DNA of 44,824 nucleotides, from NCBI GenBank assembly GCA_031265035.1, contig JAISDE010000108.1, positions 1-44,824 on the forward strand, in the 5' to 3' direction. Below the pieces are notes generated by a model. The model saw only the letters and a list, made by a program, of their open reading frames with translations. It made no database searches and was not told where the DNA came from. Source of the stretch: Peptococcaceae bacterium (GTDB lineage Bacteria > Bacillota > Peptococcia > DRI-13 > UBA5745). This document shows, piece after piece, positions 6,519-24,943 of the stretch (position 1 is its first letter; each line of letters opens with the position of its first letter). The position numbers and the translations under genes were made by a program.

Positions 6519-6665
6519 AGGGAACACACCTGCTTTCTATGACCTTCATTATACGCGGTTTGCCCGGAAAATACAACCTGAAACGAAGTGAAACAATTTC
6601 GTTTGTTGTTCGGGGCTGTCAATCTGACAACTTCGCCCGCCTCTGTCGACCGTTTTTTCGGCCGC

Positions 6666-7970: not shown

Positions 7971-8259
7971 AACTATTACCTCCCAAAGCGTATATGAGCA
8001 TTTTAACAGACAGCGCCAAAAAAGGGTAGAGCGGATCCACTACATAGCTTCGCGCCAAGAATGTCAAGAAATTTTATCTTAGAGTGAATTGTTAAACACA
8101 TGTAAGGCCCAGAGGGTCTTGACATTACGGCCAGTGTTGTGTTAGACTAACTTAGGGAATGAATATTATACGTATACGGGACGGATACAAAACAGCCACA
8201 AGGCAACGAGTCGGCCGGCGCTGGCCCGGATACCCGAAAGGAGCGGATCGCTGATAAAT

Positions 8260-9105: not shown

Positions 9106-9137
9106 GAAAAAATCTGAAAAAATCTAAAGAAAAAATC
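9103..9137 (+). repeat. three tandem A-rich units starting at the AraC stop codon
   Basis: TGAGAAAAAATC TGAAAAAATC TAAAGAAAAAATC; stop TGA = 9103-9105. Confidence 0.8.
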
Positions 9138-9247
9138 CATCCTTCCGAGGAATTCCTCCATTTTCCCGAGGCGGGTTTCCTGTTATAATCGGCTCATTTG
9201 ATTTATGATGTTATCTAAAACTAACATCTTTGAAGGAGCGAGTAAAC

Positions 9248-10339
9248 ATGATTAAAAAACCCTTGGCCATTTTAATGAGCGCGGCTATCTCTCTGGCGGC
9301 GCTGACGGGCGCCTGTTCCGCCGGCGGCTCTCCCGCCCAAAACCCGGCGGGCGCCGGGTCTGAGACGCCGCCCGCCGCCGCTGTCGCGGCGCCCCCCGCC
9401 GCCTCGGCTGCCCAGCCCCCGGACTCGACGGACGCCGCCGCCCGGACGGTTTATCCGCTGACCATTGATAATTACGACGCGGACGGCGGCGCCTTTGTCC
9501 AGGTATTCCCGAAAGCCCCGGAGCGGGTGGTCGCCACCACTCAGGCCAACATCGAGATAATGCTGAAGCTGGGCTTGGGGGACAGGCTGGTAGGCGTCGC
9601 CAACATCATCAGTGATTTCCCGGCGGATTTACAGGCGGAGGCCGCCTCCCTCAACGAGATTTCCAAGCAGTGGCCGCCGATGGAGGTGGTATTGGGCGTA
9701 TCCCCGGACTTTGTAATGGGCCGAGCCTTCGATTTCAATGAGGGCGAATATGGCCTGGGCACCGTGCGCTCTTACAGCGACATGGGCATCAACACCTTTA
9801 TCTGGGCCTCCAGCAGTATTACCGGCGATCCCACTATGGAGGACATTATCAGCGATATCCGCGTCATCGGCCAGATCTTCGACGCGCAGGCCAGGGCCAA
9901 CGCTTTCGCCGACGAGCTGCAGGCTCGGCTGGATCAGGTAAAGGCGTCCCTTCCCGCCCAGGCGGGCGAGAAGAAGGCCCTGATGATTACCGACTTTGAC
10001 GGCAGCACCTATGGCCAATACGGCGCCAAGGCCAAGCTGCAAAACGACCTGCTGGCCAAGCTGGGCTACGTCAACGCCACGGAGCAGGCGGGCAATTCTC
10101 TGGGCCTGGAGACCATGGTGGCCATTTCCCCGGATATTATCATCTATATCGAGTATGACGGCAGCGCGCTGGAGCCCCAGGAGGCCATCAATAGCCTCTT
10201 GGCCCAGGACGCTTTGCGGGGTGTCCCGGCCATCGCGAACAACGCGGTTTACCGGGTGCCTTTCAACAACATTATGGGCCACGGCTACTGCACCATCGAG
10301 GGGCTGACCCAGTTGGCGGAGCAGATTTACCCCAATTAG
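9248..10339 (+). CDS. ABC transporter substrate-binding lipoprotein, Fe-siderophore/cobalamin (FecB/BtuF) class
   Basis: The ORF track starts at TTG 9230; ATG 9248 follows GAAGGAG. Lipobox LTGAC. Ala/Pro-rich linker. Lies in an operon with a FecCD permease and a FepC-like ATPase. Confidence 0.85.
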   Translation: MIKKPLAILMSAAISLAALTGACSAGGSPAQNPAGAGSETPPAAAVAAPPAASAAQPPDSTDAAARTVYPLTIDNYDADGGAFVQVFPKAPERVVATTQANIEIMLKLGLGDRLVGVANIISDFPADLQAEAASLNEISKQWPPMEVVLGVSPDFVMGRAFDFNEGEYGLGTVRSYSDMGINTFIWASSSITGDPTMEDIISDIRVIGQIFDAQARANAFADELQARLDQVKASLPAQAGEKKALMITDFDGSTYGQYGAKAKLQNDLLAKLGYVNATEQAGNSLGLETMVAISPDIIIYIEYDGSALEPQEAINSLLAQDALRGVPAIANNAVYRVPFNNIMGHGYCTIEGLTQLAEQIYPN

Positions 10340-10371
10340 GACGATTAACCCTAAGGCGGAAAGGTTACGCG

Positions 10372-11469
10372 ATGCGCTCACTCATCTCCCGCGGACAAGG
10401 CGAGGCCGCGCCGTCTCTCGTCAAATCCTTGGTTCCAGTGGTGGCGGCGCTGCTGGCGCTGAATATTGTCTCCTTGGTGATCGCCGTCTCCGTGGGGCAG
10501 GTGGCCATCCCCGCCGAGCTATCCTACAAGATCTTGCTATATCGGCTGACCGGCGCCGTAGTGGGGGATAAGGGGGCGCTGACGGCGGGAACTTTTATGA
10601 ATATAGTCTGGGATATCCGGTTTCCCAGGGCTCTGACATCTATGCTGGTAGGGGCGGGGCTGGCGGTTTGCGGCGTGATTATGCAGGCGTCGGTGAAAAA
10701 CCCCCTGGCCGATCCCTATATCCTGGGCGTGTCCTCCGGCGCCTCCCTGGGCGCTACCTTCGCGATTTTGATCGGCTTTGGCTCGTTGGATCTGCTGTCC
10801 CAGGCGGGGGTTTCTTTCGGGGCCTTCACCGGGGCGCTCATCGCGTCTTTGGGGGTGCTGACGCTGGCGGAGACGAGCGGGCGGGCCACCTCCACCAAGC
10901 TGGTGCTGTCCGGCATGGTCATCAACGCTTTGTGCAACGCCTTCTCCAACTTTATTGTCTATTTCGCCAGCGACTCGGAGGGGATCAAAAGCGTGACCTT
11001 TTGGACGATGGGCAGCCTGGCGTCGGCCAAGTGGGAAAAGCTGCCCCTGCTGGCGGCGGTCGTGGGCGCGGCGCTGCTGTTTTCCCTGCCCCAGGCCCGG
11101 GTTCTCAACATTATGCTGATCGGGGATGAGGCGGCGATTACGCTGGGGATCAGGCTGTCCTCTTACCGGCGGGGCTACATGATCGTGTCGGCCCTGGTGA
11201 CGGGGGTCATTGTGTCCTATTGCGGCATGATTGGCTTTGTGGGGCTGATTGTCCCCCATATCGCCCGGGGCTTTGTCGGCTCGGATCACCGGCGGGTCAT
11301 CCCCATCAGCATGGGAATAGGCTCACTGTTTTTAGTTTGGGCGGACGTTATCGCCCGGGTGGCGATCCCCAAAAGCGAGGTGCCCATCGGTATTATCACC
11401 GCGATGATCGGCGCGCCGGTCTTTATTTACATGCTGGTAAAACGGGGCTACGGATTCGGGAAGGAATAA
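10372..11469 (+). CDS. FecCD-family iron-siderophore/B12 ABC transporter permease
   Basis: 365 aa, multi-TM. Conserved FecCD stretches (NPLADPYILGVSSGASLGA, GMIGFVGLIVPHIAR, PIGIITAMIGAPVFIYML). Confidence 0.9.
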   Translation: MRSLISRGQGEAAPSLVKSLVPVVAALLALNIVSLVIAVSVGQVAIPAELSYKILLYRLTGAVVGDKGALTAGTFMNIVWDIRFPRALTSMLVGAGLAVCGVIMQASVKNPLADPYILGVSSGASLGATFAILIGFGSLDLLSQAGVSFGAFTGALIASLGVLTLAETSGRATSTKLVLSGMVINALCNAFSNFIVYFASDSEGIKSVTFWTMGSLASAKWEKLPLLAAVVGAALLFSLPQARVLNIMLIGDEAAITLGIRLSSYRRGYMIVSALVTGVIVSYCGMIGFVGLIVPHIARGFVGSDHRRVIPISMGIGSLFLVWADVIARVAIPKSEVPIGIITAMIGAPVFIYMLVKRGYGFGKE

Positions 11470-12353: not shown

Positions 12354-14264
12354 TTGCTGCTGATGAATCGGACACTCCTGCGACTTTCCCGGGGGCTGTG
12401 GCCGCGTATTTTTTTGATCGTGGCCGTCAAGCTGGTTGTGTTGGTCGGCACAGCCAGGTTCGCGGGCAATGTGGCCGAGCTGCTGGGGGATTTTCTTGAG
12501 CCCCGGCTGACCGGCGGGCAATTCAGGCAGGCGGTTCTCGCCGCTTTCCTGGCCGCCGCCGTCGTGCTGTTGGGCGAGGTTTTGGCGGGGGAGGCGGAGT
12601 TTCTCTGCGCCGCCAAGGCCCGCCGGTCGCTGCGGGAAAAACTCTTTTCCAGACTGCTGGCTCTCGACGCCGTCGGGGCGGATAGCCTCGGCGTGACCGC
12701 CGCCGTCACGGCTACCGCGGATGGGGTGGAAGCGCTGCAAACTTACTACAGCAGGTATCTGCCAGCCCTGTTCTACAGCCTGACGGCGCCGGTTTATTTA
12801 TTTTTCGCGCTGCGGGATATTTCCCTGCCCGGGGCGGCGCTGCTGCTGGCGACAGCCTACTGTGTAACGCCCCTCAACAGCCTGTTTCGCCAAAAAGTGG
12901 AGCGGCTGAAAAAAGGTTATTGGAATGGCTTTCAACAATTGACGGCTTATTATCTGGAGAGCCTGCGCGGGCTCACTACCGTTAAGCTTTTTAATCAGGA
13001 CGAAACCAGGGGGAATGCCCTGGCGGCCAAAGCGGAGAATTTCAACAGCAGAATCATGGATATGATGAGGCTGAATTTTTCGGCCTTTCTGTTTACCGAT
13101 ACGCTGGTACATCTGGCGGAGGCGGCGGCGCTGATTTTAGTGTGCGTTCAGGCTGGCCGGGGAGCGATAAGTCTACCGGCCGCGCTGATGGTGTTTATGC
13201 TGGCCCACAGCTTCTTTGCCTCCGTGGGCCAGTTGATGAGCGCGACCCATCAGGCGATTGCCGGCGTGGCGGCCTCCGAGCAGGCGGCCGTGATTTTGGG
13301 CGAGGCGCCGGACGAGGCGCCGCCGCGCGCCGCGGCCCCTGAGCCGGCCGGGCCGAGGCGAGCTGAGGCCGCCGCGCCGGCCGGGGCGGCTGTCGCGGCG
13401 GGGTCACAGCGGCCTGAGCCAGTCGCGACCGACGCTCCCGCGGCGCCGGCAGCCCCGGCCGCTCCTGTAGCGCCGGCCGCGCCGCCGCCCGGCGGGGCAA
13501 GGAAGGGCGGCGCCTTTGCCGGCATTGAGATACGGGGCGTTTCTTATCGCTATGGCGACAGGCGGGCAGCGCTTCGTCAGGTAAACCTACAAATCCCCCA
13601 AGGCTCCAAGGTGGCCCTGGTGGGACAGTCCGGCTGCGGGAAAAGCACGCTGGCCGCCTTGCTGATGGGCTTTCTCACCCCGGCTGGGGGAGAGATTTTT
13701 ATTGACGGAGCGGACAGCGCCGGGCTTGCCCCGGAGCGGCGGCGGGGCCAAATTGTGCTGGTGCCCCAGACGGTGGGGCTTTTTAGCGGCAACGTCGCCG
13801 ACAATCTGCGGATCGCCAGGCCGGACGCGAGTGAGGCCGTCTTGCTGGGCGCGTTGGAGCAGGCGCGCCTGAGAGAATGGGTGGCGTCTCAGCCCAAGGG
13901 GCTGGGGACGGAAGTCGGCGACGCCGGCACCAAGCTGTCCGGCGGACAGCGGCAGAAGATGGGCATCGCCCGGGCTTTTCTTACCGGCGCGCCTTACCTG
14001 ATTTTTGATGAGGCCACCTCCAGCGTGGATCCGGAAAGCGAGCGGGAAATTTGGGCCTGTATTGAGGATCTGGCCGCCTCCCGCACAATAATTATCATTT
14101 CTCACCGCTTGGCCGCCATTAGCGCCGCCGACCGGATTTACGTCTTGTCCGACGGCGCGATAGCCCAATGGGGGACGCACGGCGAGCTGATGGGGCAAGA
14201 AGGGCTGTACCGCCGATTGGTGACGGAGCAAGCCGAGTTGGAACGTTACGGATTAGTTCAATAA
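12354..14264 (+). CDS. ABC exporter, fused permease/ATPase subunit (CydD-like)
   Basis: 636 aa. TTG 12354 lies 10 nt after AAGGGAG (alternative ATG 12363). N-terminal 6-TM domain. NBD motifs GQSGCGKST, LSGGQRQKM, LIFDEATSSVD. A roughly 70-aa Ala/Pro-rich insert sits at the TMD-NBD junction. Confidence 0.85.
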   Translation: MLLMNRTLLRLSRGLWPRIFLIVAVKLVVLVGTARFAGNVAELLGDFLEPRLTGGQFRQAVLAAFLAAAVVLLGEVLAGEAEFLCAAKARRSLREKLFSRLLALDAVGADSLGVTAAVTATADGVEALQTYYSRYLPALFYSLTAPVYLFFALRDISLPGAALLLATAYCVTPLNSLFRQKVERLKKGYWNGFQQLTAYYLESLRGLTTVKLFNQDETRGNALAAKAENFNSRIMDMMRLNFSAFLFTDTLVHLAEAAALILVCVQAGRGAISLPAALMVFMLAHSFFASVGQLMSATHQAIAGVAASEQAAVILGEAPDEAPPRAAAPEPAGPRRAEAAAPAGAAVAAGSQRPEPVATDAPAAPAAPAAPVAPAAPPPGGARKGGAFAGIEIRGVSYRYGDRRAALRQVNLQIPQGSKVALVGQSGCGKSTLAALLMGFLTPAGGEIFIDGADSAGLAPERRRGQIVLVPQTVGLFSGNVADNLRIARPDASEAVLLGALEQARLREWVASQPKGLGTEVGDAGTKLSGGQRQKMGIARAFLTGAPYLIFDEATSSVDPESEREIWACIEDLAASRTIIIISHRLAAISAADRIYVLSDGAIAQWGTHGELMGQEGLYRRLVTEQAELERYGLVQ

Positions 14265-16051: not shown

Positions 16052-16121
16052 TTTAGCGCGGAACCCGTTGCGGCGCCCGCCATTTCAAGGTATACTATGA
16101 GCAGAGAGGGAGTTGATCGCC

Positions 16122-16586
16122 ATGCGCGTGCCGCGCGTTTATATTGAATCCTCAGTCTTTAACTTTATGTTCGCTGACGACGCGCCGGATAAACGTAATG
16201 ATACCCAAAAGCTATTTGATGAGATTAAGGCGGGGTTGTATGAGCCATACACATCTGAATATGTTGTGCGGGAACTTTCAGCGGCGCGGGCACCAAAAAG
16301 AGAGAATATGCTCAGCCTGATCAAGCAATATGACATAATCCCACTACCAGCCGACGAAGAAACTGAGCGGTTAGCCGCTATATATGTGATGGAAGGCGTT
16401 ATCCCCGCCAAGTACGGTACCGACGCGATTCATATCGCTTGCGTGACAGTAAATGACCTAGACTTTATCGTCAGTTTTAATTTCAAACATATAGTAAAAC
16501 GTAAGACTATGCTGATGACGGGGGCGATTAATTTGCGCGAGGGCTATAAGCAGATTGGGATTTTCTCGCCGACGGAGGTGATTTAG
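16122..16586 (+). CDS. PIN-domain protein (VapC-like toxin candidate)
   Basis: ATG 16122 lies 9 nt after AGAGGGAG (the track starts at TTG 16113). PIN-like landmarks VYIESSVF, SEYVVRELS, GTDAIHIAC, FIVSFNFKHI. Visibly AT-richer than its flanks. Confidence 0.65.
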   Translation: MRVPRVYIESSVFNFMFADDAPDKRNDTQKLFDEIKAGLYEPYTSEYVVRELSAARAPKRENMLSLIKQYDIIPLPADEETERLAAIYVMEGVIPAKYGTDAIHIACVTVNDLDFIVSFNFKHIVKRKTMLMTGAINLREGYKQIGIFSPTEVI

Positions 16587-16587
16587 G

Positions 16588-16809
16588 ATGAATGATTTAG
16601 ATAAATATATGAATGACCCTGATATTATTGATGAGCCCATGCCTATGCGAGAGATTCACGCTATCCGGCTGATGATTCAAGCCGAGACTAAGGAAATGTC
16701 CCCGGCTGAGCGCGCCCGGCACACTCATGAGCAGGCGCAAAAGGTGATGGAGGAATATGGCTTGACAGAGCGACAGCCAAAATCGCGCGGGGTAAGAAAA
16801 ATTATGTAA
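16588..16809 (+). CDS. small acidic/helical partner protein of the PIN gene (antitoxin candidate)
   Basis: 73 aa. ATG 16588 lies 1 nt after the PIN stop, with a GGAGG RBS inside the PIN 3' end. I recognise no family. Confidence 0.55.
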   Translation: MNDLDKYMNDPDIIDEPMPMREIHAIRLMIQAETKEMSPAERARHTHEQAQKVMEEYGLTERQPKSRGVRKIM

Positions 16810-16825
16810 GGGAAATATTCTTTAA

Positions 16826-18646
16826 ATGCGGGATCATATGAGCGAGAGCGGCGAGAGCAAAAAAGATGAGGGTATATTGGACACCGGCATATTCTATGAG
16901 ATGGAGTACGCTTCTAGTCCCGCGCCGGGCATTGAGAGGCTCGTCTCGGGTCTCCAAAAGATCCCGCCGCCGATCCGGGACGCGAGGCGGGAGATCTTCA
17001 GCCAAATGCGGGATATCGCGCGGAAATACCGCCTCGGGCCCAATTACCCGCGGTCTTTTGACCAAAAGCTCCAGGGCGACAACGGGATCATCTTTTATAA
17101 GCAAGGCATGTTTATGAGAGATTTCTCGGATGATTACTCCGGCCACGCGGGGTTCGCGCGATATTTCCCCTTTTATCAGATGATGGGCTATGAGCAGCTG
17201 CGCACGTATTTTACCTGGCGGACGGCGGTCAGAAAAGGCAGCGTCCGGGAAATCTCACCGGCTTACGCTTTTTTGTATGTCTATGAGCTGCTGGCCAATA
17301 TCGGGGCGGACGACCCGGCGGACGGCCTGGCGAAGCTGCTGTTTTTTTGGCGGGCCTTCAGCGCGTATGACAATACCCTGGACAAGTATATTTTCCGCTG
17401 GCTGAAAGATTATCATATCTACTACGAGCTGCCCCTGTCCTTCCGGGAGTTCACCGAAAAGAACAACCTTACCGGGCATTATCCGGAGCTGGCCGCCACT
17501 GGCAATCCCGGGGACGATTTTGATTTGCTCTGCGGGATCTCCAAGTACGACCTCAGGGCTTCCGCCTTTTTTACCGCCGGTAACGGGGAACTGATCAAGG
17601 ATTGCTTTTACTTCGTGACCGATCGGCTCCGACAGGTATTCCGGGACAAAGGCGAAGATTTCGACGGTTATATATTTCAGTCCCCTCAGCGAATGTCGGC
17701 CTGGGCGCCGTTTAGGGACGCCTTATTTTATCAGTGGCTGCGGCAGCCGGACAGGCGGGTGATTTTGTCCCCCAGAGAAATCTATATTTGCCGCCAAAAT
17801 AAATGGATTTTCAGCCCGGTCATAACCACCGAGAGCGGCAGGCTGCTGCTGGGTTATATCATGCGGCAAATGGAGTCCGCTCTGCGGGCAGCCGCGAAAT
17901 ATAAATTCAAGCTGAGGGCCGGTATCCACAGCCTGGCGCCCAGCAGCGGCGCCGCCCCGCCTGACGCGGCCGATAAATTGGCCGGGGCGGGATTATCCCT
18001 GGAGAATGTCATCAACGGCGGGGTCAGGGAGTTTTACCGAGAGGCGACCCAAACGGTCGTCAAGCTTGATCCCGACGCGTTGGCCAGCATCCGGCGGGAG
18101 GCCCTGGTCACACAGGAAAGGCTGCTTGTGCCGGAGGGGGAAGCAGGCTCCGGGGCGGTAGCGGCGGCGGTAGCGTTTGCTCTGCCGCCAAAGCTGGTGC
18201 CAGAGCAAACGCCGTCCGCGACACCGGAGGCAACGCTGTTGCCAGTGGCGGCGCCACCAGAGCTGGCGCCAGTACCGGAACTGCCGGCGGCGGCAGCGGC
18301 GGCGGCGGTAGCTCCGGCGCAGACGCCAGCGCCAGCATCGGAGTCGGAACTGCCGCCGCCGACACCGCCGCCAACCCCGGCGCCTGAAAGCCCACCGGCG
18401 GCGGCCGCCGGCATCTGGGCGAGCCTCCAAGCCGCGCTGACCGAGACTGAGCTACAGGCCCTGGCGGCGCTGGCCCAGGGCGAACAAGACATCAGGGAAT
18501 TCGCCGGCGCGCGGGGTGTCCTGCCGGAGGTTTTGCTGGACGGGATCAACGGGAAGGCGCTGGATATTATCGGCGACAGCCTTACGGACGCCGAGTTCGT
18601 TTTATACAGTGACTACAAAGATCAAGTAAAGGAATTGGTCAGATGA
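16826..18646 (+). CDS. sngA: TerB-N / TerB-C domain protein (Shango SngA-like)
   Basis: 606 aa. TerB-N-type block YFPFYQMMGYEQLRTYFTWRTAVRKGSVREISPAYAFLYVYELLANIG. A roughly 90-aa Ala/Pro linker. TerB-C-type tail LTETELQALAALAQGEQDIREFAGARGVLPEVLLDGINGKALDIIGDSL. Confidence 0.8.
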   Translation: MRDHMSESGESKKDEGILDTGIFYEMEYASSPAPGIERLVSGLQKIPPPIRDARREIFSQMRDIARKYRLGPNYPRSFDQKLQGDNGIIFYKQGMFMRDFSDDYSGHAGFARYFPFYQMMGYEQLRTYFTWRTAVRKGSVREISPAYAFLYVYELLANIGADDPADGLAKLLFFWRAFSAYDNTLDKYIFRWLKDYHIYYELPLSFREFTEKNNLTGHYPELAATGNPGDDFDLLCGISKYDLRASAFFTAGNGELIKDCFYFVTDRLRQVFRDKGEDFDGYIFQSPQRMSAWAPFRDALFYQWLRQPDRRVILSPREIYICRQNKWIFSPVITTESGRLLLGYIMRQMESALRAAAKYKFKLRAGIHSLAPSSGAAPPDAADKLAGAGLSLENVINGGVREFYREATQTVVKLDPDALASIRREALVTQERLLVPEGEAGSGAVAAAVAFALPPKLVPEQTPSATPEATLLPVAAPPELAPVPELPAAAAAAAVAPAQTPAPASESELPPPTPPPTPAPESPPAAAAGIWASLQAALTETELQALAALAQGEQDIREFAGARGVLPEVLLDGINGKALDIIGDSLTDAEFVLYSDYKDQVKELVR

Positions 18647-20085
18647 GCGAGGTCAGTCAGGCGGAGAATCGGGCGGCGAGTCAGGCGGAGGGTCAGGCGG
18701 CGAGTCAGGCGGAGGGTCAGGCGCCAAATCAGGTGTCCGGCCAGGCGCCTGACCAGCCAGCGACTCAGGCGCCAAGCCGGGCGCCAAACAGGATCGCCCA
18801 TATCCTGCTCAACGCTTTGCAGGGCGGCGTGGTGCCCCGGGTGGGGCTGGAATACATCACGGTGGGACGGGCGGAGGAAATCGCCGCCATACTGCGGGAT
18901 ATTGAGATGATCGGGGAAGGCGGCGCCGCCTTCCGTTTTATCGTGGGCAAATACGGCAGCGGCAAGAGCTTTTTGCTCCAAACCATCCGCAATTACGCCG
19001 CGGCCAGGGGTTTCGCGGTGGTGGACGCCGACCTCTCGCCCGAGCGCCGTTTCGCCGGGACCAAAGGGCAGGGCCTGGCCACCTATAAAGAATTGATCCG
19101 GAATCTGTCCACCAAATCAAAACCCGACGGCGGCGCCCTGCCCTTGATCCTGGAAAAGTGGATCGCCGGTATTCAAACGGCGGTGAGAACCGGCTCCGAC
19201 GCTGACGGCCCGGCCTTTGACGATCTGGTGGAGCGGCGAATTTACGCGGTGGCCGGCTCCCTCGAGGGGATGGTCAACGGCTTTGAGTTCGCCAGGGCGG
19301 TGGCCATATACTGGCAATCCTACCGGCAGGGCGACGAGGCGATGAAATCCAAGGCGCTCAGATGGTTCCGGGGCGAGTATCCCTCCCGGAAAGAGGCCAA
19401 GGACGATTTGGGGATCAATTTCATTGTCACCGACGAGACCTGGTACGACTTCCTGAAAATATTCGCCGCCTTCCTGGTTGGCGCGGGCTACAAAGGTCTG
19501 CTCGTCGTCATAGACGAGCTGGTCAATATTTTCCGGATCTCCCACTCCGTCACCAGGGCGAATAATTATGAGAAAATCCTCACCATGTACAACGACGTAT
19601 TGCAGGGCAAAGCCAGCCATATCGGCTTTTTGATGGGCGGCACGCCCCAGTGCGTGGAGGACAAATACAAGGGTGTTTTCAGCTATGAGGCGTTGCGCTC
19701 TCGCCTGGCCGACGGCCATTTCGCCGCCGCCGGCCTCAAAGACCTGACCTCCCCGGTCATCAGGCTGCGCATGCTCTCCCAGGCGGAAATGTATATCCTG
19801 GTGGAGAAGCTGCTCCACCTCCACGCCCGGCTCTACAATTACGCCCCGGCCTTATCCCATGAGGATCTGGTTTATTTCCTCACGGTGGAATACAACCGGG
19901 TAGGCGCCGAGACCCATATTACCCCGAGGGAGATCATCCGGGATTTTATCGGGCTGATCAATATCCTGCGCCAGAATCCCCACCAGAGCGTAGCCGGGAT
20001 TTTGGGCGACAACAGCTTTGAGCTGGCCAAAGGCGGCCTCAGCGATGAGGATATCCACAGCGAGTTCCAGGAATTCGAGGTCTGA
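18643..20085 (+). CDS. sngB: BrxD/DUF2791-like P-loop ATPase (Shango SngB-like)
   Basis: 480 aa; ATGA start/stop overlap with the upstream gene. Motifs VPRVGLEYITVGR, Walker A GKYGSGKS, Walker B LLVVIDELVN. Confidence 0.8.
   Translation: MSEVSQAENRAASQAEGQAASQAEGQAPNQVSGQAPDQPATQAPSRAPNRIAHILLNALQGGVVPRVGLEYITVGRAEEIAAILRDIEMIGEGGAAFRFIVGKYGSGKSFLLQTIRNYAAARGFAVVDADLSPERRFAGTKGQGLATYKELIRNLSTKSKPDGGALPLILEKWIAGIQTAVRTGSDADGPAFDDLVERRIYAVAGSLEGMVNGFEFARAVAIYWQSYRQGDEAMKSKALRWFRGEYPSRKEAKDDLGINFIVTDETWYDFLKIFAAFLVGAGYKGLLVVIDELVNIFRISHSVTRANNYEKILTMYNDVLQGKASHIGFLMGGTPQCVEDKYKGVFSYEALRSRLADGHFAAAGLKDLTSPVIRLRMLSQAEMYILVEKLLHLHARLYNYAPALSHEDLVYFLTVEYNRVGAETHITPREIIRDFIGLINILRQNPHQSVAGILGDNSFELAKGGLSDEDIHSEFQEFEV
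18655..18786 (+). repeat. 11 x 12-nt tandem repeat (core RGTCAGGCGGNG) inside the ATPase 5' end
   Basis: AGTCAGGCGGAG AATCGGGCGGCG AGTCAGGCGGAG GGTCAGGCGGCG AGTCAGGCGGAG GGTCAGGCGCCA AATCAGGTGTCC GGCCAGGCGCCT GACCAGCCAGCG ACTCAGGCGCCA AGCCGGGCGCCA. This encodes SQAE NRAA SQAE GQAA SQAE GQAP NQVS GQAP DQPA TQAP SRAP. Confidence 0.9.
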
Positions 20086-20135
20086 GAATTGGGATGAGGC
20101 ATGAGAATTGGCATAGGGATTGAGGTCTGAGCATT

Positions 20136-22409
20136 ATGGATGTATTTGACAGGCTGGCCCCCTTTATTCAGGACTTTATTTACCAAAACAAATGGGAAGC
20201 GCTACGGGGCATCCAGGTAGCCGCCTGCGAGGTCATCCTCGACAGCGACGACAACCTGCTCCTTTCCTCCGGCACGGCTTCCGGCAAGACGGAGGCGGCT
20301 TTTCTGCCGGTTCTGACGGAGCTACACAACAAGCCCTCCGCCTCGGTGGGCGTCATGTATATATCGCCCTTGAAGGCGCTGATCAATGACCAGTTCAACC
20401 GGCTGGGGCAGATGCTTTTGGACTCCGATATCCCCGTCACGAAATGGCACGGGGACGCGTCAATGACCCAAAAGAGCAAGCTCGTCAAGAACCCCCGGGG
20501 CCTGCTCCAAATAACGCCGGAGTCGTTGGAGAGCCTGATCAGCAATAAACGGGGCGCCTGCCTGTCGCTGTTCGCCGATTTGCGGTTTGTCGTCATTGAC
20601 GAGGTGCATTACTTCATGCGGGATATCCGGGGCTTGCAGCTTTTGTGCGTGCTGGAGCGGCTGAGCCGGCTGACCGGCGTCAAGCCCCGGCGGATCGGCC
20701 TGTCGGCCACCCTGGGCGACCTTTCCCTGGCCCAGGCCTGGTTGAGCGCCGGCACCGGCCGCGCGTGCGCCGCCCCCGCGGCGGCGGCCGAGAAAAAGCG
20801 GATCGGGCTGCATATTGAGCGCTTCGTGAATTACGCCGAGGAAAGGGATCTGGTCGAGAAAGACAGCGGCGGCGGCGCGGTGAGCGTCAACGCCGGCGAT
20901 TTCGGCGATCTGGAGCATTATGAGTATCTTTTCAAGCATACCCTGGATAAAAAGACGATCATCTTTACCAACAGCCGGGAGGAAACCGAGCTGGTCATGG
21001 CCCGCCTGCGGGATGTGGCCCTGAAAAATAAGGCCCCCGATGTCTATCGCGTCCATCACGGCAATGTCTCGGCCCTGTTGCGGGAAAGCGCGGAGGACGA
21101 GATGCGATCCGCCGACGAGAAAATCGTTACCGGCGCCACCGTGACCCTGGAATTGGGCATCGACATCGGCTCCCTTGACCAGGCCGTCCAAATCGGCGCC
21201 CCCCTCAATGTCTCCAGTTTCGCGCAGCGCTTGGGCCGCTGCGGGCGGCGGGGGCAAATCCCCCGGCTGCTCTTTACTTTTGTGGAAAGCGTCAAGATCA
21301 ACTCCGACGACCCCCTCGGGCCTATCAACTGGGATTTCCTCCGCACCATAGCGATCCTTGAGCTTTATCTCAAAGACCACTGGCTGGAGCCGATCCCCCC
21401 GCAGCGCCACGCCTACAATCTTCTGTATCACCAAACCATGAGCTGCCTCAAAAGCAACGGGGAAATGTCCCCCGCCGGGCTGGCGACGGCGGTTTTGTCG
21501 CTCAGTTGTTTCCAAAATATCTCCCAGGCCGACTACCATAGGCTGCTTTCCCACCTGATTAGCGCGAACCAATTGCAGCGGACGGAGCGGGACGGGCTGA
21601 TCATCGGCCGGGAGGGGGAGAAGGTCGTCAACAGCTACAAATTCCTGACGGTATTTCTGACGCCGGAATACCTGCTGGTCAAGGACGAGAACCGGGCCAT
21701 CGGCACGGTGGACAAGGTTTATCCGGTGGGCGTCCGCTTCGCCTTGGCGGGCCTGACCTGGGAGACGGTGGCTGTGAATGAGAAGTCCAAGGTGATATTT
21801 GTCAAACAGGTGCCGGGCATAGCCGTGGTGGACTGGAATGTTGACTTCACCGCCGAGCTGCATACCGTTTTGGTCCGGAAAATTCGTAGCGTACTGCGGG
21901 AGGACGGCGCTTATCCCTATTTGAGCCAGCGCTGCGGCCCGCGCCTGGCCGAGATCCAATATATCGCCCGGGGCAGCGGCATCCTGGACAATTTGGTGAC
22001 CCCGCTGTCCCATCGAAAATACGCCGTCTTTCCCTGGGTGGGGACAAGACAGCTCATGACATTGAATTATCTTTTGCGGCGCCGGGGCGTCAAGAGCAAG
22101 CTGCCCTGGATCACCTGCCTCTACCTTGAGGTGATCTTTGAGGGGACGGGGGAGGAATTGGCGGGCGTCGTCGCGGACAGCCTCAGCGGCGAGCCTGACC
22201 TTTATGATTTGCCACTGCCCGACAAGGTACAGATTGCCGGGAAATACAACGAGTTCGTCCCCCCCGACCTTTTGCGCAAGCAATTTATCGAGGATTATCT
22301 CGACTTCGATGGTCTGCGGGAGGCGCTTGCCCCGCTCAGTCATTCCGGCTTGTCTCAGAATCCAAAAACGGCAGACAGTAGAATGGATTCCGGCATAAAG
22401 CCAGAATGA
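20136..22409 (+). CDS. sngC: Lhr-like superfamily-2 DEAD/DEAH-box helicase (Shango SngC-like; BrxHI-like)
   Basis: 757 aa. Motif I SGTASGKTEAAF, Ia ISPLKALINDQ, II VIDEVHYF, III LSATLG, V ATVTLELGIDIG, VI QRLGRCGRRG. Confidence 0.9.
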   Translation: MDVFDRLAPFIQDFIYQNKWEALRGIQVAACEVILDSDDNLLLSSGTASGKTEAAFLPVLTELHNKPSASVGVMYISPLKALINDQFNRLGQMLLDSDIPVTKWHGDASMTQKSKLVKNPRGLLQITPESLESLISNKRGACLSLFADLRFVVIDEVHYFMRDIRGLQLLCVLERLSRLTGVKPRRIGLSATLGDLSLAQAWLSAGTGRACAAPAAAAEKKRIGLHIERFVNYAEERDLVEKDSGGGAVSVNAGDFGDLEHYEYLFKHTLDKKTIIFTNSREETELVMARLRDVALKNKAPDVYRVHHGNVSALLRESAEDEMRSADEKIVTGATVTLELGIDIGSLDQAVQIGAPLNVSSFAQRLGRCGRRGQIPRLLFTFVESVKINSDDPLGPINWDFLRTIAILELYLKDHWLEPIPPQRHAYNLLYHQTMSCLKSNGEMSPAGLATAVLSLSCFQNISQADYHRLLSHLISANQLQRTERDGLIIGREGEKVVNSYKFLTVFLTPEYLLVKDENRAIGTVDKVYPVGVRFALAGLTWETVAVNEKSKVIFVKQVPGIAVVDWNVDFTAELHTVLVRKIRSVLREDGAYPYLSQRCGPRLAEIQYIARGSGILDNLVTPLSHRKYAVFPWVGTRQLMTLNYLLRRRGVKSKLPWITCLYLEVIFEGTGEELAGVVADSLSGEPDLYDLPLPDKVQIAGKYNEFVPPDLLRKQFIEDYLDFDGLREALAPLSHSGLSQNPKTADSRMDSGIKPE

Positions 22410-22495
22410 CGGCGGGAGCGATCCACCTATGAACTACTACTGTAACAGCGACTTGTGACTTTTTATATCTGCAACCACCGAAAAAATTGTAGGCA

Positions 22496-22541
22496 TTCGC
22501 TAAAGGCATAAAGGCATTTGCTAAAGGACGTTCGCTAAAGG
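22496..22541 (+). promoter_or_regulatory. direct-repeat array (TTYGCTAAAGG x3 plus one TAAAGG half unit) abutting the -35
   Basis: TTCGCTAAAGG 22496-22506, TTTGCTAAAGG 22517-22527, TTCGCTAAAGG 22531-22541, and an extra CATAAAGGCA at 22507-22516. Confidence 0.6.
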
Positions 22542-22543
22542 AT

Positions 22544-22572
22544 TTGACAATTTTGCTGGTTGGATGTAACAT
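22544..22572 (+). promoter_or_regulatory. candidate sigma-70-type promoter of the comFB-ABC operon
   Basis: TTGACA (22544-22549), 17-nt spacer, TAACAT (22567-22572); 51 nt upstream of ATG 22624. Confidence 0.55.
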
Positions 22573-22623
22573 AAAGTCGTCGATTCAATTTTCCTGATTT
22601 TTAGCGGGGACTGGGGGCCGGGT

Positions 22624-22968
22624 ATGGCAAAGCCGGACAGTGGGTTGGAGCGTGGCGCCAGATATATTTTGCGCAATAGTTACGAGGAAATGGTCAGGAT
22701 CAGGACGAAGGAGATCATGTCCAGAATGGATATGTGCTGTTGCGAGAAATGCTATTTGGATGTCTGCGCCTTGGTGTTGAATCAATTACAGCCCAGGTAT
22801 GTGACGACGGAAAAAGGCTCGCTGATCGCCAAGCTGCCGGAAATGTCGAAACGCAAGGAACTGGAGATGACCGTTTTGATCAGCCGGGCGGCGAAAATGG
22901 TGCGAGACCATCCCAGTCACGACGCGAAAATGGCGCGGGACAATCCTAATCATGACGCGAAAATGTGA
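22624..22968 (+). CDS. comFB: ComFB-family (late competence development protein ComFB domain) small protein
   Basis: 114 aa. Family signature MDMCCCEKCYLDVCALVLNQLQPRYV. C-terminus carries a tandem MVRDHPSHDAK / MARDNPNHDAK repeat. Confidence 0.75.
   Translation: MAKPDSGLERGARYILRNSYEEMVRIRTKEIMSRMDMCCCEKCYLDVCALVLNQLQPRYVTTEKGSLIAKLPEMSKRKELEMTVLISRAAKMVRDHPSHDAKMARDNPNHDAKM
22891..22968 (+). repeat. 2.4 x 33-nt in-frame tandem duplication at the comFB 3' end
   Basis: GCGAAAATGGTGCGAGACCATCCCAGTCACGAC / GCGAAAATGGCGCGGGACAATCCTAATCATGAC / GCGAAAATGTGA. ATG 22952 of the next gene lies in copy 2. Confidence 0.9.
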
Positions 22969-24943
22969 GGCGCCGGAGGAAAATACAGGCCGGGAGCGGC
23001 GCCGTCCACAGAGAACTCAGACACGGTTGCGGATTTTGTCACATTACGCCAAAGGCGCCAAGGGTTTGCTCTTGCTGTCGTTGATCGCTTCGGTTTTATC
23101 GATCGGATGCTATTTTTTGATGCCCCAAGTGATTTTGCTCACGGTGGATTCTGTGATCGGGGAAGCGGATTTCCGTTTGCCTGATTTTTTGTTGGCGGGG
23201 ATAAATCAGGCCGGGCTACGGGCCTATCTGCGGCAAAATCTTGTCTGGTGTCTGGCGGTGATTTTGCTGTTCGACATTTTGTCCGGGTTTTTTACCTATC
23301 TGCGCCGGGCGTCTATGGCCAAGGGAGCGGAAGGTATTATCCGCCGCCTGCGGATCGGGCTGTACGGGCATATCCAGCGGCTGCCCTATCTTTGGCACGC
23401 CGAACACAAGACAGGGGATATCCTGCAGCGCTGCACCGCCGACGTGGATGTGATCCGGCTGTTTATCAGCGGGCAGGCGCTGGAGCTTTTTCGCGCGGTG
23501 TCCCTGGTGATTTTGGCGCTGGCCGTCATGTTTACCATGAATATCAAAATGACCCTGGCGGCGGCCGGTTTTTTGCCGCTGATCGCGATTTACTCCTACG
23601 TGTTTTATGGCCGGATCGCCAAACGGTTTCGGGCCGCCGATGAGGCGGAGGGCGAGTTGTCCGCGGCGGTGCAGGAGAACCTGTCCAGCGTTCGGGTGGT
23701 GCGGGCTTTTGGGCGGGAGCGATATGAGGTGGAGCGGTTTGACGCGAAAAACCTGCGTTTCACCGACCTGTGGATGAGATTGGGTTATGTGCTGGGTCTG
23801 TATTGGGGGTTGGGCGATTTGCTCACCGGCTTGCAGGTTATGACAGTGGTAGGGATGGGCGCTTTGCTGTCGACGACGGGCGAGTTGACCATGGGGCAGT
23901 TTTTGGCTTTTGTGTCTTATAATGCCCAGCTGGTGTGGCCGATCCGGGGCCTGGGCCGGATTTTGTCGGAAATGAGCAAGGCCGGCGTGTCCCTGGATCG
24001 GATCGGCGCCATACTGACGTATCCGGCGGAGGACTCCGACGAGGCGGAGCCGAGCGAGGTGGAGTCGAGCGAGGCGGCCGCGGCCGCCAACGGCAACGTC
24101 GGCGAGGCCGACAGCGCCAACGGTGCCGGAACCGACGCTGGCGCCGCGGGCACCGAGGCCGACGACGAGCTTTTTGCCGGGGATATCGCGTTTGACATCA
24201 GGCGATTCGCCTATCCGGGCGGCAAGCCGATTTTGCGGGATATCCGGGTAACGATCCCCGGCGGCTCCACTCTGGGCATACTGGGCGGCACGGGGACGGG
24301 CAAGTCCACCTTGATGCACCTGCTGGATCGACTTTACGACTTGCCGCCGGCCATGGGCCGGATCACCGTTGGCGGCGTGGATATCCAAAGCCTCCGGCGC
24401 CGGCGGTTGCGGCGGCACATTGGATTCGCGCTGCAAGAGCCTTTTTTATTTTCCCGCACGATTCGGGAGAATATCAGCGCTTTCCGGCCGGGCGCCCCTC
24501 TGGCGGCGGCCCGCCGGGCGGCGGCCATCGCCTGCGTGGACGGCGCCATCGAGGGATTTGCCGACGGATATGACACCATGGTCGGCGAGCGGGGCGTCAC
24601 CCTTTCCGGCGGCCAAAAGCAACGGGTAGCCATTGCCCGGATGCTGACGCAGCAGGCGCCCATCATGATTTTTGACGATTCCCTCTCGGCGGTGGACGGG
24701 GAGACCGACGCCCGAATTCGGGCGTCCCTGCGGGAAAATCTGGGCCGGGCCACAGTCATCCTGATTTCCCACCGGGTCGCCACCTTGATGACGGCGGATA
24801 ATATCTTGGTGCTGGATAACGGCCAGGTCACCGAGATGGGTACCCACGCGGAATTGCTGGCCCGGGAGGGTATTTACCGGCGGGTTTTCGATATTCAGGG
24901 CGGCGGCGAGGTGACGCCGGCGGGGGGTGAGCTGGATGTTTGA
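22952..24943 (+). CDS. ABC exporter, fused permease/ATPase subunit 1
   Basis: 663 aa. The start overlaps the comFB 3' end by 17 nt and has no strong RBS, so the start is uncertain. 6-TM domain. Motifs GGTGTGKST, LSGGQKQRV, MIFDDSLSAVD. An acidic roughly 50-aa insert sits at the TMD-NBD junction. Confidence 0.85.
   Translation: MTRKCEAPEENTGRERRRPQRTQTRLRILSHYAKGAKGLLLLSLIASVLSIGCYFLMPQVILLTVDSVIGEADFRLPDFLLAGINQAGLRAYLRQNLVWCLAVILLFDILSGFFTYLRRASMAKGAEGIIRRLRIGLYGHIQRLPYLWHAEHKTGDILQRCTADVDVIRLFISGQALELFRAVSLVILALAVMFTMNIKMTLAAAGFLPLIAIYSYVFYGRIAKRFRAADEAEGELSAAVQENLSSVRVVRAFGRERYEVERFDAKNLRFTDLWMRLGYVLGLYWGLGDLLTGLQVMTVVGMGALLSTTGELTMGQFLAFVSYNAQLVWPIRGLGRILSEMSKAGVSLDRIGAILTYPAEDSDEAEPSEVESSEAAAAANGNVGEADSANGAGTDAGAAGTEADDELFAGDIAFDIRRFAYPGGKPILRDIRVTIPGGSTLGILGGTGTGKSTLMHLLDRLYDLPPAMGRITVGGVDIQSLRRRRLRRHIGFALQEPFLFSRTIRENISAFRPGAPLAAARRAAAIACVDGAIEGFADGYDTMVGERGVTLSGGQKQRVAIARMLTQQAPIMIFDDSLSAVDGETDARIRASLRENLGRATVILISHRVATLMTADNILVLDNGQVTEMGTHAELLAREGIYRRVFDIQGGGEVTPAGGELDV

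What the first reader, a model, noticed from the sequence alone, without database searches (positions are those of the whole stretch)
16826..22409. Stand-alone TerB-N/TerB-C + BrxD-like ATPase + Lhr-like helicase triad (Shango-type anti-phage system of unknown mechanism)
Seen:
- Gene 1 has a TerB-N-type block (YFPFYQMMGYEQLRTYFTWR...YAFLYVYELLANIG) and a TerB-C-type tail, separated by an Ala/Pro linker.
- Gene 2 is a P-loop ATPase (GKYGSGKS, LLVVIDELV) with the VPRVGL..ITVGR N-terminal block of DUF2791/BrxC-BrxD-type proteins, and it overlaps gene 1 by ATGA.
- Gene 3 is an SF2 helicase with Lhr-type motifs (GTASGKT, DEVH, SAT, LELGIDIG, QRLGRCGR).

Established: this TerB-like / ATPase / helicase triad is the architecture named Shango (SngA/B/C) in the systematic defence-island screens. 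The ATPase-helicase pair resembles BrxD/BrxHI of type-2 BREX.

No methyltransferase, PglZ, nuclease or other effector is present here, so how the triad senses and stops phage is open. Local peculiarities are the repeat-encoded tail on SngB and the PIN pair directly upstream.
Basis: partly seen in the sequence, partly recalled or inferred. Interest (0 to 1): 0.7.

Follow-up and report, generated by a model that had tools for sequence, protein, structure and literature searches.

The report
Ordinary Shango anti-phage gene trio
The three genes are a complete, intact copy of the already described Shango anti-phage system in a Clostridia-type chromosome, so this is a correct but ordinary identification of a system whose mechanism is still unknown.

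Summary
Three co-directional ORFs (16826-18646, 18643-20085, 20136-22409) match the PADLOC SngA, SngB and SngC models over their full length (E 7e-59, 1e-174, 3e-215). Pfam finds TerB_N+TerB_C, BrxC_BrxD and DEAD+Helicase_C. All ATPase and helicase motifs are intact. No BREX core gene or nuclease lies anywhere in the 44.8-kb window, which otherwise carries housekeeping genes.

Shango has already been validated in E. coli and P. aeruginosa. No paper that I found gives its mechanism. The SngA family is large (2,246 clusters at 50% identity). This is therefore a new member of a known kind.

- **SngA evolves faster than its partners.** It is 50% identical to relatives, against 82-84% for SngB/SngC, and dN/dS is 0.15 against 0.02. 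This fits a sensor or adaptor role in front of a conserved loader-helicase motor.
- **Many relatives carry a repressor that the window lacks.** In 34 of 75 informative related loci a LexA/CI-like XRE-S24 repressor with twin operators sits directly upstream of SngA.
- **The upstream pair is not a Shango partner.** The window has a weakly PIN-like two-gene module at that position. It occurs next to Shango in 0 of 85 other loci.
- **The repeats are local.** The SngB repeat is a 40-residue N-terminal expansion. The Ala/Pro linker interrupts TerB_C. Similar insertions occur in neighbouring transporter genes.

The parts
16826..18646 (+). sngA: TerB_N/TerB_C protein, 606 aa (alternative start at 16838 gives 602 aa)
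   Evidence: PADLOC SngA E 6.6e-59, residues 21-604 on profile 51-526/528. Pfam TerB_N 4e-25 and TerB_C 4e-8. 474 homologues, the nearest about 50% identical. AF2 model confident for residues 120-440 and 530-606.
17069..17464 (+). TerB_N match within SngA (residues 82-213); residues 121-140 are the best-conserved stretch of the protein
   Evidence: Pfam. Conservation profile: majority-residue frequency 0.94 at residues 121-140.
18146..18409 (+). Ala/Pro-rich disordered linker (SngA residues 441-528), inserted inside the TerB_C match
   Evidence: Gap fraction 0.5-0.9 in 59 homologues. pLDDT 30-42. Short tandem repeats at 18283-18384. Ala+Pro fraction 0.70 over 40 aa.
18410..18643 (+). C-terminal half of TerB_C (SngA residues 529-606): a small, confidently folded, strongly acidic helical domain
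   Evidence: Pfam TerB_C 6e-7 on this fragment alone. pLDDT 86-95. Net charge -8 here, family mean -11.8. The whole-model Foldseek search gave only weak local similarity (about 70 columns) to winged-helix domains (E about 1). The tool does not report which SngA residues matched, so placing that similarity in this domain is my inference from its helix-helix-helix-hairpin pattern.
18643..20085 (+). sngB: BrxC_BrxD-family (ORC/Cdc6-type AAA+) ATPase, 480 aa, overlapping sngA by ATGA
   Evidence: PADLOC SngB 1.2e-174, against BrxD 3.8e-43. Pfam BrxC_BrxD 7.6e-156. Walker A at residue 102 and Walker B at residue 287. 84% identical to relatives.
18655..18777 (+). Local N-terminal repeat expansion of SngB (residues 5-45; 12/24-nt units encoding SQAEGQAA-like octapeptides)
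   Evidence: TRF period 24, 2.9 copies, 93% matches at 18655-18723. Relatives are 440 aa and lack it. Sequence read directly.
20086..20135 (+). 50-nt sngB-sngC spacer, bounded by a direct repeat GAGGTCTGAG (20078-20087 and 20121-20130); relatives have only 2-5 nt here
   Evidence: Sequence read directly. Gene coordinates in relatives.
20136..22409 (+). sngC: Lhr/BrxHI-type SF2 helicase, 757 aa
   Evidence: PADLOC SngC 2.7e-215, against BrxHI 1.7e-113. DEAD and Helicase_C. Weak WH_Lhr. Best PDB sequence matches are Lhr 5v9x/7lhl and MrfA 6znp. Best Foldseek match is Lhr 5v9x, E 3.7e-12, from a low-confidence model. 79-83% identical to relatives across Clostridia.
16122..16586 (+). Adjacent gene, not a conserved Shango part: PIN-like protein (154 aa from ATG 16122; the ORF opens at 16113)
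   Evidence: Pfam PIN_3 0.007 and PIN 0.05, both below cut-off. 397 homologues at about 65% identity, a few with precomputed PF01850, one named VapC. No PDB hit with a profile. Absent from 85 other Shango loci.
16588..16809 (+). Adjacent gene: 73-aa partner of the PIN-like gene. It starts 1 nt after that gene and ends 16 nt before sngA.
   Evidence: No family hit. Homologous (31% identity, E 1e-9) to the 61-aa gene that overlaps the PIN-like homologue in L169, a locus without Shango.

Best explanation
**What it is (shown).** This is a complete, apparently functional, stand-alone Shango system (sngA-sngB-sngC). It sits as a compact cassette among housekeeping genes on a Clostridia-type chromosome; NCBI labels the identical SngC as coming from a Peptococcaceae MAG.

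**How it most likely works (inferred, about 0.3 confidence for this part).**
- SngB is an ORC/Cdc6-type AAA+ ATPase of the BrxD family. SngC is an Lhr/BrxHI-type 3'-to-5' helicase with a winged-helix region and a C-terminal domain. Together they form a very conserved loader-plus-motor pair that acts on phage DNA or on its replication or recombination intermediates.
- SngA evolves about three times faster in sequence, with about sevenfold higher dN/dS. It is the specificity, sensor or adaptor subunit that decides when or where the motor engages.
- SngA has a basic folded core. A strongly acidic C-terminal domain is tethered to it by a linker of variable length. This layout would suit an autoinhibitory or partner-binding switch.
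- The cassette encodes no nuclease. Interference would therefore come from ATP-driven unwinding or stripping of phage replication intermediates, or from handing the DNA to host nucleases.

**Regulation.** In about 45% of related loci the cassette sits behind a self-cleaving LexA/CI-type repressor with twin operators, which implies expression gated by damage or RecA. This window lacks that switch. Its cassette is probably read through from the promoter of the upstream PIN-like two-gene module.
For: **Identity.**
- Full-length PADLOC SngA/B/C matches and the matching Pfam domains.
- Order A-B-C on one strand, with the same ATGA A/B overlap as relatives.
- Intact Walker A/B and helicase motifs II, III and VI.
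- Purifying selection on all three genes.

**Known system.** Millman 2022 and Johnson 2023 validated Shango.

**Motor pair.**
- SngB and SngC are 84% and 82% identical to relatives.
- A 2026 NAR analysis classifies BrxD as ORC/Cdc6 AAA+ and describes BrxD-BrxHI as a tightly linked dyad and proposed helicase loader.
- SngC's best structural and sequence relatives are Lhr and MrfA.

**SngA as the variable subunit.**
- It is 50% identical to relatives.
- It is less conserved than SngC in 153 of 153 locus pairs, with a median divergence ratio of 2.84 and r = 0.81.
- dN/dS is 0.149 for SngA against 0.021 and 0.022 for SngB and SngC, at similar dS.

**SngA layout.** AF2 model and segment charges.

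**No nuclease or BREX core.**

**No transmembrane segment.**

**S24 switch in relatives.**
- 34 of 75 informative loci carry it.
- Pfam S24 at 1e-19, and a UmuD match covering the Ser motif (SGNSM in the L085 copy against SGDSM in UmuD) and the Lys motif (LKKL against VKKL).
- Operators at about -100 and -70 in 28 of 30 loci, against a background of 0.26 per 160 nt.
Against: - No experiment on this locus or its clade exists. The validated Shango systems are proteobacterial, and I did not compare sequences with them directly, only through HMMs built from the family.
- The loader-helicase idea is borrowed from an in-silico analysis of BREX type 2.
- Faster SngA evolution is equally compatible with relaxed constraint on a scaffold. 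dN/dS of 0.15 still indicates purifying selection.
- The SngC model is poor (mean pLDDT 54), so its C-terminal domains rest on weak evidence.
- SngA has no significant structural neighbour.
- Co-transcription with the PIN-like pair is inferred only from spacing and from the absence of a predicted terminator.
Confidence: 0.85

Rival explanations
1. The trio is a DNA-damage response or repair module (an Lhr/MrfA-like helicase with an accessory ATPase and a Ter-type stress protein). It would not be an anti-phage system in this lineage.
For: - The window is purely housekeeping, not a defence island.
- SngC's nearest characterised relatives are the repair helicases Lhr and MrfA.
- In 45% of related loci the cassette lies behind a LexA/UmuD-type self-cleaving repressor with operators, which is the hallmark of SOS-type regulation.
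- SngB and SngC are conserved at about 80-94%, like core enzymes.
Against: - Homologous triads protect E. coli and P. aeruginosa from phages.
- The cassette sits in a different genomic context in nearly every locus, with no recurrent neighbour. This is the behaviour of a mobile accessory element, not a core repair gene.
- One relative is degraded by an insertion.
- SngA evolves fast.
- Damage-inducible regulation is also compatible with defence.
Confidence: 0.07
2. In this window Shango works as a five-gene unit. The PIN-like protein is the missing effector (an RNase released or activated by SngABC), or its two-gene module replaces the S24 repressor as the trigger or regulator.
For: - The pair lies on the same strand, with 1-nt and 16-nt gaps and no predicted terminator before sngA.
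- It occupies exactly the position that the S24 repressor gene holds in 34 related loci.
- The Shango genes themselves encode no recognisable effector.
Against: - No PIN-like or 73-aa homologue lies next to Shango in 85 other loci.
- The PIN-like gene and its small partner occur as a pair elsewhere without Shango.
- The PIN assignment is sub-threshold, and the fourth acidic position is an invariant Asn.
- Validated Shango systems work with three genes.
Confidence: 0.06
3. The locus is a remnant of a type-2 BREX (Pgl) system that has kept only the BrxD-BrxHI pair.
For: SngB matches the BrxD models (PADLOC 3.8e-43, NCBIfam 1e-43). SngC matches BrxHI (1.7e-113).
Against: - The Shango models score far higher (580 against 146 bits, 715 against 378 bits).
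- The BrxD equivalog scores 150 bits, far below its 350-bit cut-off.
- No PglX, PglZ, BrxC or PglW lies anywhere in the 44.8 kb.
- The same three-gene layout recurs in every related locus long enough to show the downstream genes.
Confidence: 0.01

Closest known systems
Shango (SngA/SngB/SngC) of E. coli (Millman et al. 2022) and P. aeruginosa PA14 cDHS1 (Johnson et al. 2023)
   Same: The three protein families, gene order and strand are the same. All three PADLOC models match over their full length. No nuclease or modification enzyme is present.
   Different: - The host is Gram-positive (Clostridia) and the setting is housekeeping, not a defence hotspot.
- SngA carries an 88-residue Ala/Pro linker and SngB a 40-residue N-terminal repeat.
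- A PIN-like two-gene module lies directly upstream.
- I made no direct pairwise comparison with the validated proteins.
- Activity is untested.
The S24-repressor + SngABC four-gene cassette found in related Clostridia loci
   Same: SngB and SngC are 82-84% identical and SngA 50% identical. The A/B overlap and gene order are identical.
   Different: The window has neither the XRE-S24 gene nor its TGCAG-N3-CTGCA-type operators anywhere in its 44.8 kb.
BrxD-BrxHI dyad of type-2 BREX (Pgl)
   Same: The ATPase is of the same ORC/Cdc6-type AAA+ family (PF10923) and the helicase of the same Lhr-like SF2 clade. Both occur as a tightly linked pair.
   Different: The BREX core (PglX, PglZ, BrxC, PglW) is absent. 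The match falls below the BrxD equivalog threshold. The pair is joined to a TerB_N/TerB_C protein instead.
Lhr and MrfA/YprA repair helicases
   Same: These are the best solved-structure relatives of SngC. There is a weak WH_Lhr match after the helicase core.
   Different: Identity is only about 16-25% over the core. SngC lacks the MrfA DUF1998 and the Lhr long C-terminal extension. It has different partners and an accessory-gene distribution.
Other TerB-type defence proteins (Bunzi BnzA, Dionysus DinB)
   Same: They share a Ter-superfamily label and an unknown molecular role.
   Different: SngA has TerB_N and TerB_C but no classic TerB (PF05099) match and no transmembrane segment. Its partners are an ATPase and a helicase, not membrane or pore proteins.

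Membership tests
Shango | SngA: a protein with TerB_N and TerB_C that matches the SngA profile | tested here: met
   PADLOC SngA E 6.6e-59, 199 bits, residues 21-604 on profile 51-526/528. Pfam TerB_N 89 bits and TerB_C 34 bits, both above their gathering scores.
Shango | SngB: a P-loop ATPase of the BrxC_BrxD/DUF2791 family that matches the SngB profile | tested here: met
   PADLOC SngB E 1.2e-174, 580 bits, near full length. PF10923 at 520 bits. Walker A and B present.
Shango | SngC: an SF2 DEAD/DEAH helicase that matches the SngC profile | tested here: met
   PADLOC SngC E 2.7e-215, 715 bits, residues 3-730 on profile 5-716/720. DEVH, SAT and QRLGRCGR present.
Shango | All three genes adjacent and co-directional | tested here: met
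   Coordinates 16826-18646, 18643-20085 and 20136-22409, all on the + strand. The layout is the same in the related loci that were read gene by gene.
Shango | Protects cells against phage infection | not testable with these tools
   Protection is shown only for the E. coli and P. aeruginosa homologues.
BREX type 2 (Pgl) | Core genes PglX methyltransferase, PglZ, BrxC/PglY and PglW alongside BrxD and BrxHI | tested here: not met
   Pfam scans of the 26 largest ORFs of the window find transporters, SecA, metabolic enzymes and ComFB only.
BrxD (NCBIfam NF033438 equivalog) | Score at or above the curated cut-off of 350 bits | tested here: not met
   150 bits.
Classic TerB (PF05099) tellurite-resistance domain | Match to the TerB domain itself | tested here: not met
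   Only TerB_N and TerB_C are reported at E <= 0.01. Fragments 1-110 and 211-405 match nothing even at E <= 10.
PIN-domain toxin (VapC-like) for the upstream gene | Match to a PIN model above threshold, with four conserved acidic residues | tested here: inconclusive
   - PIN_3 scores 17.6 bits (cut-off 27) and PIN 14.7 bits (cut-off 23.6).
- Family-invariant residues are E9, E34/E51 and D101, but N120 occupies the position where the fourth acidic residue is expected.
- A profile search against PDB sequences finds nothing.
- Some homologues carry a precomputed PF01850 hit.

The most novel reading that the evidence does not exclude
In this Clostridial clade Shango would be a gated system. A self-cleaving LexA/CI-type repressor with twin operators normally keeps the cassette silent until RecA-type signals appear. 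SngA, with its acidic domain on a variable tether, would be the fast-evolving phage-facing switch for an almost invariant SngB-SngC loader-helicase motor. The window would then show a natural 'front-end swap', with the repressor replaced by a PIN-like toxin-antitoxin-type module that now controls the same motor or supplies an RNase effector to it.
Probability: 0.1. Interest if true: 0.55.

Novelty: new member of a known kind. Interest (0 to 1): 0.3.

Why it matters
As it stands, the locus adds one more Gram-positive example to a large, already named family. SngA alone has 2,246 clusters at 50% identity.

The comparative results give concrete handles on the open question of how Shango works:
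- The contrast between a nearly frozen SngB-SngC pair and a fast-evolving SngA points to SngA as the component to swap or mutate when looking for phage specificity.
- The LexA-like repressor with operators in nearly half of the related cassettes predicts damage-inducible expression, which can be tested directly.

Neither point depends on this particular window.

Tried and rejected
**Look-ups that failed.**
- Exact-sequence look-ups of the window's SngB and SngA, and of one PIN-like homologue, found nothing on record.
- The 2012 Anantharaman/Iyer/Aravind Ter paper is not held, so I do not cite its description of TerB-N/TerB-C.

**Structure searches.**
- PDB sequence searches found nothing for SngA or SngB.
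- The SngA AF2 model has no significant PDB neighbour. The weak local similarity to winged-helix DNA-binding domains (E about 1) is not reported with query coordinates. I assign it to the C-terminal domain only from that domain's secondary-structure pattern. I rejected it as evidence of DNA binding because the domain is strongly acidic.
- The SngC AF2 model was poor (pLDDT 54) because the available homologues are about 80% identical. Its Foldseek result therefore supports only 'Lhr-like'.

**Insertion-site comparison.** I looked for an empty-site relative by fetching 80 genomic loci with the flanking ABC exporter. Synteny ends at the ABC1-ABC2 pair, so no insertion boundary could be defined.

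**Other negative results.**
- A scan of IMG/VR viral contigs found no SngA relative, so there is no sign that the cassette is phage-borne.
- A search of the window for the S24 gene or its operators found none.
- My first, too strict, palindrome definition missed most operators. A looser one with a background control was used instead.
- My first estimate of SngA starts mis-scored S24 adjacency and was redone.
- A literature search for S24-type regulators of defence systems found nothing relevant.

**Rejected reading.** The 627-aa antisense ORF at 20460-22343 inside sngC has no evidence behind it. I treat it as a by-product of high G+C content.

Full report

Yes. The window has three co-directional ORFs at 16826-18646 (606 aa), 18643-20085 (480 aa) and 20136-22409 (757 aa). 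The first two overlap by ATGA, read directly as 'cagATGAgc'.

Pfam gives the following:
- Gene 1: TerB_N (E 4e-25, residues 82-213) and TerB_C (E 4e-8, residues 406-589).
- Gene 2: BrxC_BrxD (E 8e-156).
- Gene 3: DEAD (5e-27) and Helicase_C (1e-13), plus a weak WH_Lhr match.

**2. What is it?**

The PADLOC models for SngA, SngB and SngC all match end to end, with E 6.6e-59, 1.2e-174 and 2.7e-215. The next-best models are the BREX type-2 proteins BrxD (3.8e-43) and BrxHI (1.7e-113). Against NCBI's BrxD equivalog model the ATPase scores 150 bits, where the cut-off is 350.

Pfam scans of the other large ORFs of the window find no PglX, PglZ, BrxC, PglW or nuclease. They find:
- an AraC regulator;
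- a Peripla_BP_2/FecCD/ABC uptake set;
- two pairs of ABC exporters flanking the locus;
- ComFB, an aminotransferase, an S58 peptidase, SecA, MatE, serine dehydratase, PHO4 and further transporters.

The locus is therefore a stand-alone Shango triad in a housekeeping chromosomal setting.

The window is an entire JGI metagenome contig. An identical SngC is named in NCBI as coming from a Peptococcaceae MAG. The closest relative of the flanking ABC gene is also from a Peptococcaceae MAG, at 72% identity.

**3. What is known about Shango?**

- Millman et al. named Shango and Johnson et al. validated it in P. aeruginosa PA14, with a 10-100-fold drop in plating efficiency.
- A 2025 preprint still says it is unclear how TerB-domain defence proteins protect.
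- The Hachiman paper places SngC with BrxHI, DruE and DpdJ in a separate SF2 clade.
- A 2026 NAR analysis classifies BrxD as a stand-alone ORC/Cdc6-type AAA+ ATPase. It calls BrxD-BrxHI a tightly linked dyad and proposes a helicase-loader role. It describes BrxHI as SF2 core + winged helix + beta-barrel + Lhr-like C-terminal domain.
- I found no structural or mechanistic paper on Shango itself.
- No solved structure matches SngA or SngB by sequence. SngC's best matches are Lhr (5v9x, 7lhl) and MrfA (6znp).

**4. Anatomy of the three proteins**

*SngA.* An AlphaFold2 model built on 60 sequences (mean pLDDT 72) is confident for residues 120-440 and 530-606. It is disordered for 1-47, 69-110 and 440-527.

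The Ala/Pro linker (441-528) is absent or variable in homologues, with a gap fraction of 0.5-0.9. It lies inside the Pfam TerB_C match rather than between TerB_N and TerB_C. Residues 214-405 are conserved and well folded but belong to no Pfam family.

Foldseek finds no significant PDB neighbour. It reports only local resemblances of about 70 columns to winged-helix domains, at E about 1, and it does not say which SngA residues matched. I assign the resemblance to the C-terminal domain (529-606) only because its predicted helix-helix-helix-hairpin pattern fits. That domain is strongly acidic, with net charge -8 here and a family mean of -11.8. The 216-365 region is basic, with a family mean of +4.7. 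I therefore do not read the C-terminal domain as DNA-binding.

No transmembrane segment is predicted in any of the three proteins by simple hydropathy.

*SngB.* It is 40 residues longer than its relatives at the N-terminus. The ancestral 'SQVPNR' segment has been expanded by tandem duplication of a 24-nt unit.

*SngC.* The model was poor (pLDDT 54) because the available homologues are all about 80% identical. Its best fold match is nevertheless Lhr, at E 3.7e-12 over the whole length. Its predicted secondary structure after the helicase core runs helical, then beta-rich, then alpha/beta. This agrees with the BrxHI description.

**5. Comparative results**

(a) *Rate asymmetry.* Against two related loci, SngA is 49-50% identical while SngB is 84% and SngC 82%. 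SngA is the less conserved of the two in 153 of 153 locus pairs. The median divergence ratio is 2.84, and the two identities correlate at r = 0.81. For a close pair of loci with similar dS (0.09-0.14), dN/dS is 0.149 for sngA against 0.021 and 0.022 for sngB and sngC. SngA is still under purifying selection but far less constrained.

(b) *A fourth gene in relatives.* In five loci from unrelated genomic contexts, a 186-aa gene lies directly upstream of sngA on the same strand.
- It matches Peptidase_S24 (1e-19) and XRE-type HTH models, and UmuD.
- It carries a candidate Ala-Gly cleavage site (VSAG), a GDSM/GNSM serine motif and an LKKLGK lysine motif.
- It is 76-84% identical between loci.

I then surveyed 86 loci: these five, 80 from a metagenome scan, and the window. 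Of the 75 with enough upstream sequence, 34 have this gene adjacent. The other 41 have heterogeneous housekeeping neighbours with no recurrent partner.

Upstream of the S24 gene, 28 of 30 distinct loci carry palindromes of the type TGCAG-N3-CTGCA or TGCGCA-N5-TGCGCA at about -100 and -70. The second abuts a TTGcat...TGTATAAT promoter. The background is 0.26 per 160 nt.

This is the layout of an autoregulated, self-cleaving LexA/CI-type repressor. It implies damage- or RecA-gated expression in about 45% of this clade. None of the Shango papers I read mentions it. The window has neither the gene nor the operators.

(c) *The 'PIN pair'.*
- The 154/157-aa protein reaches only sub-threshold PIN scores.
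- A profile of 28 homologues finds nothing in PDB sequences.
- Its invariant residues are E9, E34/E51, D101, S118 and N120.
- It belongs to a family of about 400 sequences, a few annotated as PIN or VapC.
- In an unrelated locus the homologue is again followed by an overlapping small gene homologous to the window's 73-aa ORF (31% identity, E 1e-9), with no Shango nearby.
- None of the 85 other Shango loci has either gene.

The pair is therefore an independent two-gene, toxin-antitoxin-like module. It happens to sit 16 nt upstream of sngA, in the place the S24 gene occupies elsewhere. Given the 1-nt and 16-nt gaps and the lack of a predicted terminator, co-transcription with sngABC is plausible but not shown.

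(d) *Low-complexity insertions.* The Ala/Pro/Gly-rich insertions are not special to Shango. The neighbouring ABC1 protein has a 75-residue insertion (Ala+Pro 0.72) that relatives lack, and ABC3 has a similar acidic/Ala-rich one.

(e) *Family size and mobility.* A full HMMER scan of 1.84 billion representatives finds 2,246 SngA-like clusters at E <= 0.001 and 401 at E <= 1e-30. No relative was found in IMG/VR viral contigs. I could not define an insertion boundary, because synteny in relatives ends at the ABC1-ABC2 pair.

**6. Mechanism**

*Shown:* family membership, intact catalytic motifs, purifying selection, absence of a nuclease or modification partner, absence of membrane segments, and the rate asymmetry.

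*Inferred:* SngB-SngC act as an ORC/Cdc6-type loader with an Lhr-type 3'-to-5' motor on phage DNA or its replication intermediates. This is by analogy with the BrxD-BrxHI proposal and with Lhr/MrfA biochemistry. SngA is the variable sensor or adaptor, and its tethered acidic domain is a possible autoinhibitory element. Interference occurs by remodelling or by recruiting host nucleases.

I put about 0.95 on the identity and about 0.3 on this mechanistic outline.

*Rivals:*
- An SOS-type repair module. The S24 regulation and the Lhr kinship support it. The mobile, patchy distribution and the published phage assays count against it.
- A five-gene unit in which the PIN-like protein is effector or switch. 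Only the spacing supports it. The 0-of-85 co-occurrence counts against it.
- A BREX type-2 remnant, which is effectively refuted.

**7. Verdict**

The system is a new member of a known kind.

This locus does not make Shango's open mechanism more tractable than the validated E. coli and Pseudomonas systems do. Its two 'peculiarities' are incidental. The more useful outcomes are clade-level: the fast-evolving SngA, and the LexA-like repressor with operators in nearly half of the related cassettes.

Interest is 0.3.

Noticed in passing
Related loci L001, L003/L004, L085-L087 and 29 of L089-L168 (e.g. L085:4323-4883, with operators about 70 and 100 nt upstream of its start): A 186-aa XRE-HTH + Peptidase_S24 (LexA/CI/UmuD-like) gene lies directly upstream of sngA in 34 of 75 informative loci. 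It has a candidate Ala-Gly cleavage site and Ser/Lys motifs. Twin palindromic operators (TGCAG-N3-CTGCA or TGCGCA-N5-TGCGCA) abut a TTGcat...TGTATAAT promoter. The Shango papers I read do not mention it. The window lacks it.
   Followed up: yes
window 20136-22409 and 18643-20085, against P0122-P0240, L001, L003, L085-L087: SngC and SngB are unusually conserved: 79-84% identical to the window and 88-94% among relatives. The relatives are named as Anaerocolumna, Oscillospiraceae, Saccharofermentanales, Paenibacillus and Peptococcaceae. SngA in the same loci is only 50-75% identical.
   Followed up: yes
window 12354-14264 (ABC1, residues about 316-390), 22952-24943 (ABC3, residues about 355-400), 18146-18409 and 18655-18777: Several unrelated proteins on this contig carry Ala/Pro/Gly-rich low-complexity insertions at domain boundaries that their relatives lack. 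This looks like a habit of the lineage, not a Shango adaptation.
   Followed up: partly
window 22410-22623: The spacer between sngC and the ComFB gene holds three to four direct repeats containing GCTAAAGG (22491-22542). They lie immediately before a promoter-like TTGACA-17-TAACAT (22544-22572). This may be an operator array for the ComFB/ABC3-ABC4 genes.
   Followed up: no
window 22624-22968: A ComFB-family protein (Pfam 2e-19) has a C-terminal tandem repeat of 33 nt, 2.3 copies (22891-22965, encoding AKMxRDxPxHD). Its 3' end overlaps the start of the ABC3 exporter gene (22952).
   Followed up: no
window 20078-20130: The sngB-sngC spacer is 50 nt where relatives have 2-5 nt. It is bounded by a perfect 10-nt direct repeat GAGGTCTGAG, as if about 43 nt had been inserted or duplicated across the sngB stop codon.
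   Followed up: no
L088 (GCA_900198705.1, FZPS01000049.1), about 5001-11344: This is a degraded Shango. SngA is intact and SngB is truncated to 357 aa. It is followed by an oppositely oriented gene with a weak Eco57I-like match and an HTH_38 gene where SngC should be.
   Followed up: no
window 16113-16809 and L169:3001-3652: The weakly PIN-like 154-158-aa protein and its small downstream partner (61-73 aa) form a conserved two-gene module of about 400 known members with no Pfam family above threshold. The order 'toxin-like gene first' and the invariant Asn at the fourth acidic position are unusual for VapBC-type modules.
   Followed up: partly
window 20460-22343, minus strand: A 627-aa open reading frame runs antisense through almost all of sngC. 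Similar long antisense ORFs lie in other genes of this G+C-rich contig. I treat it as a compositional artefact.
   Followed up: no
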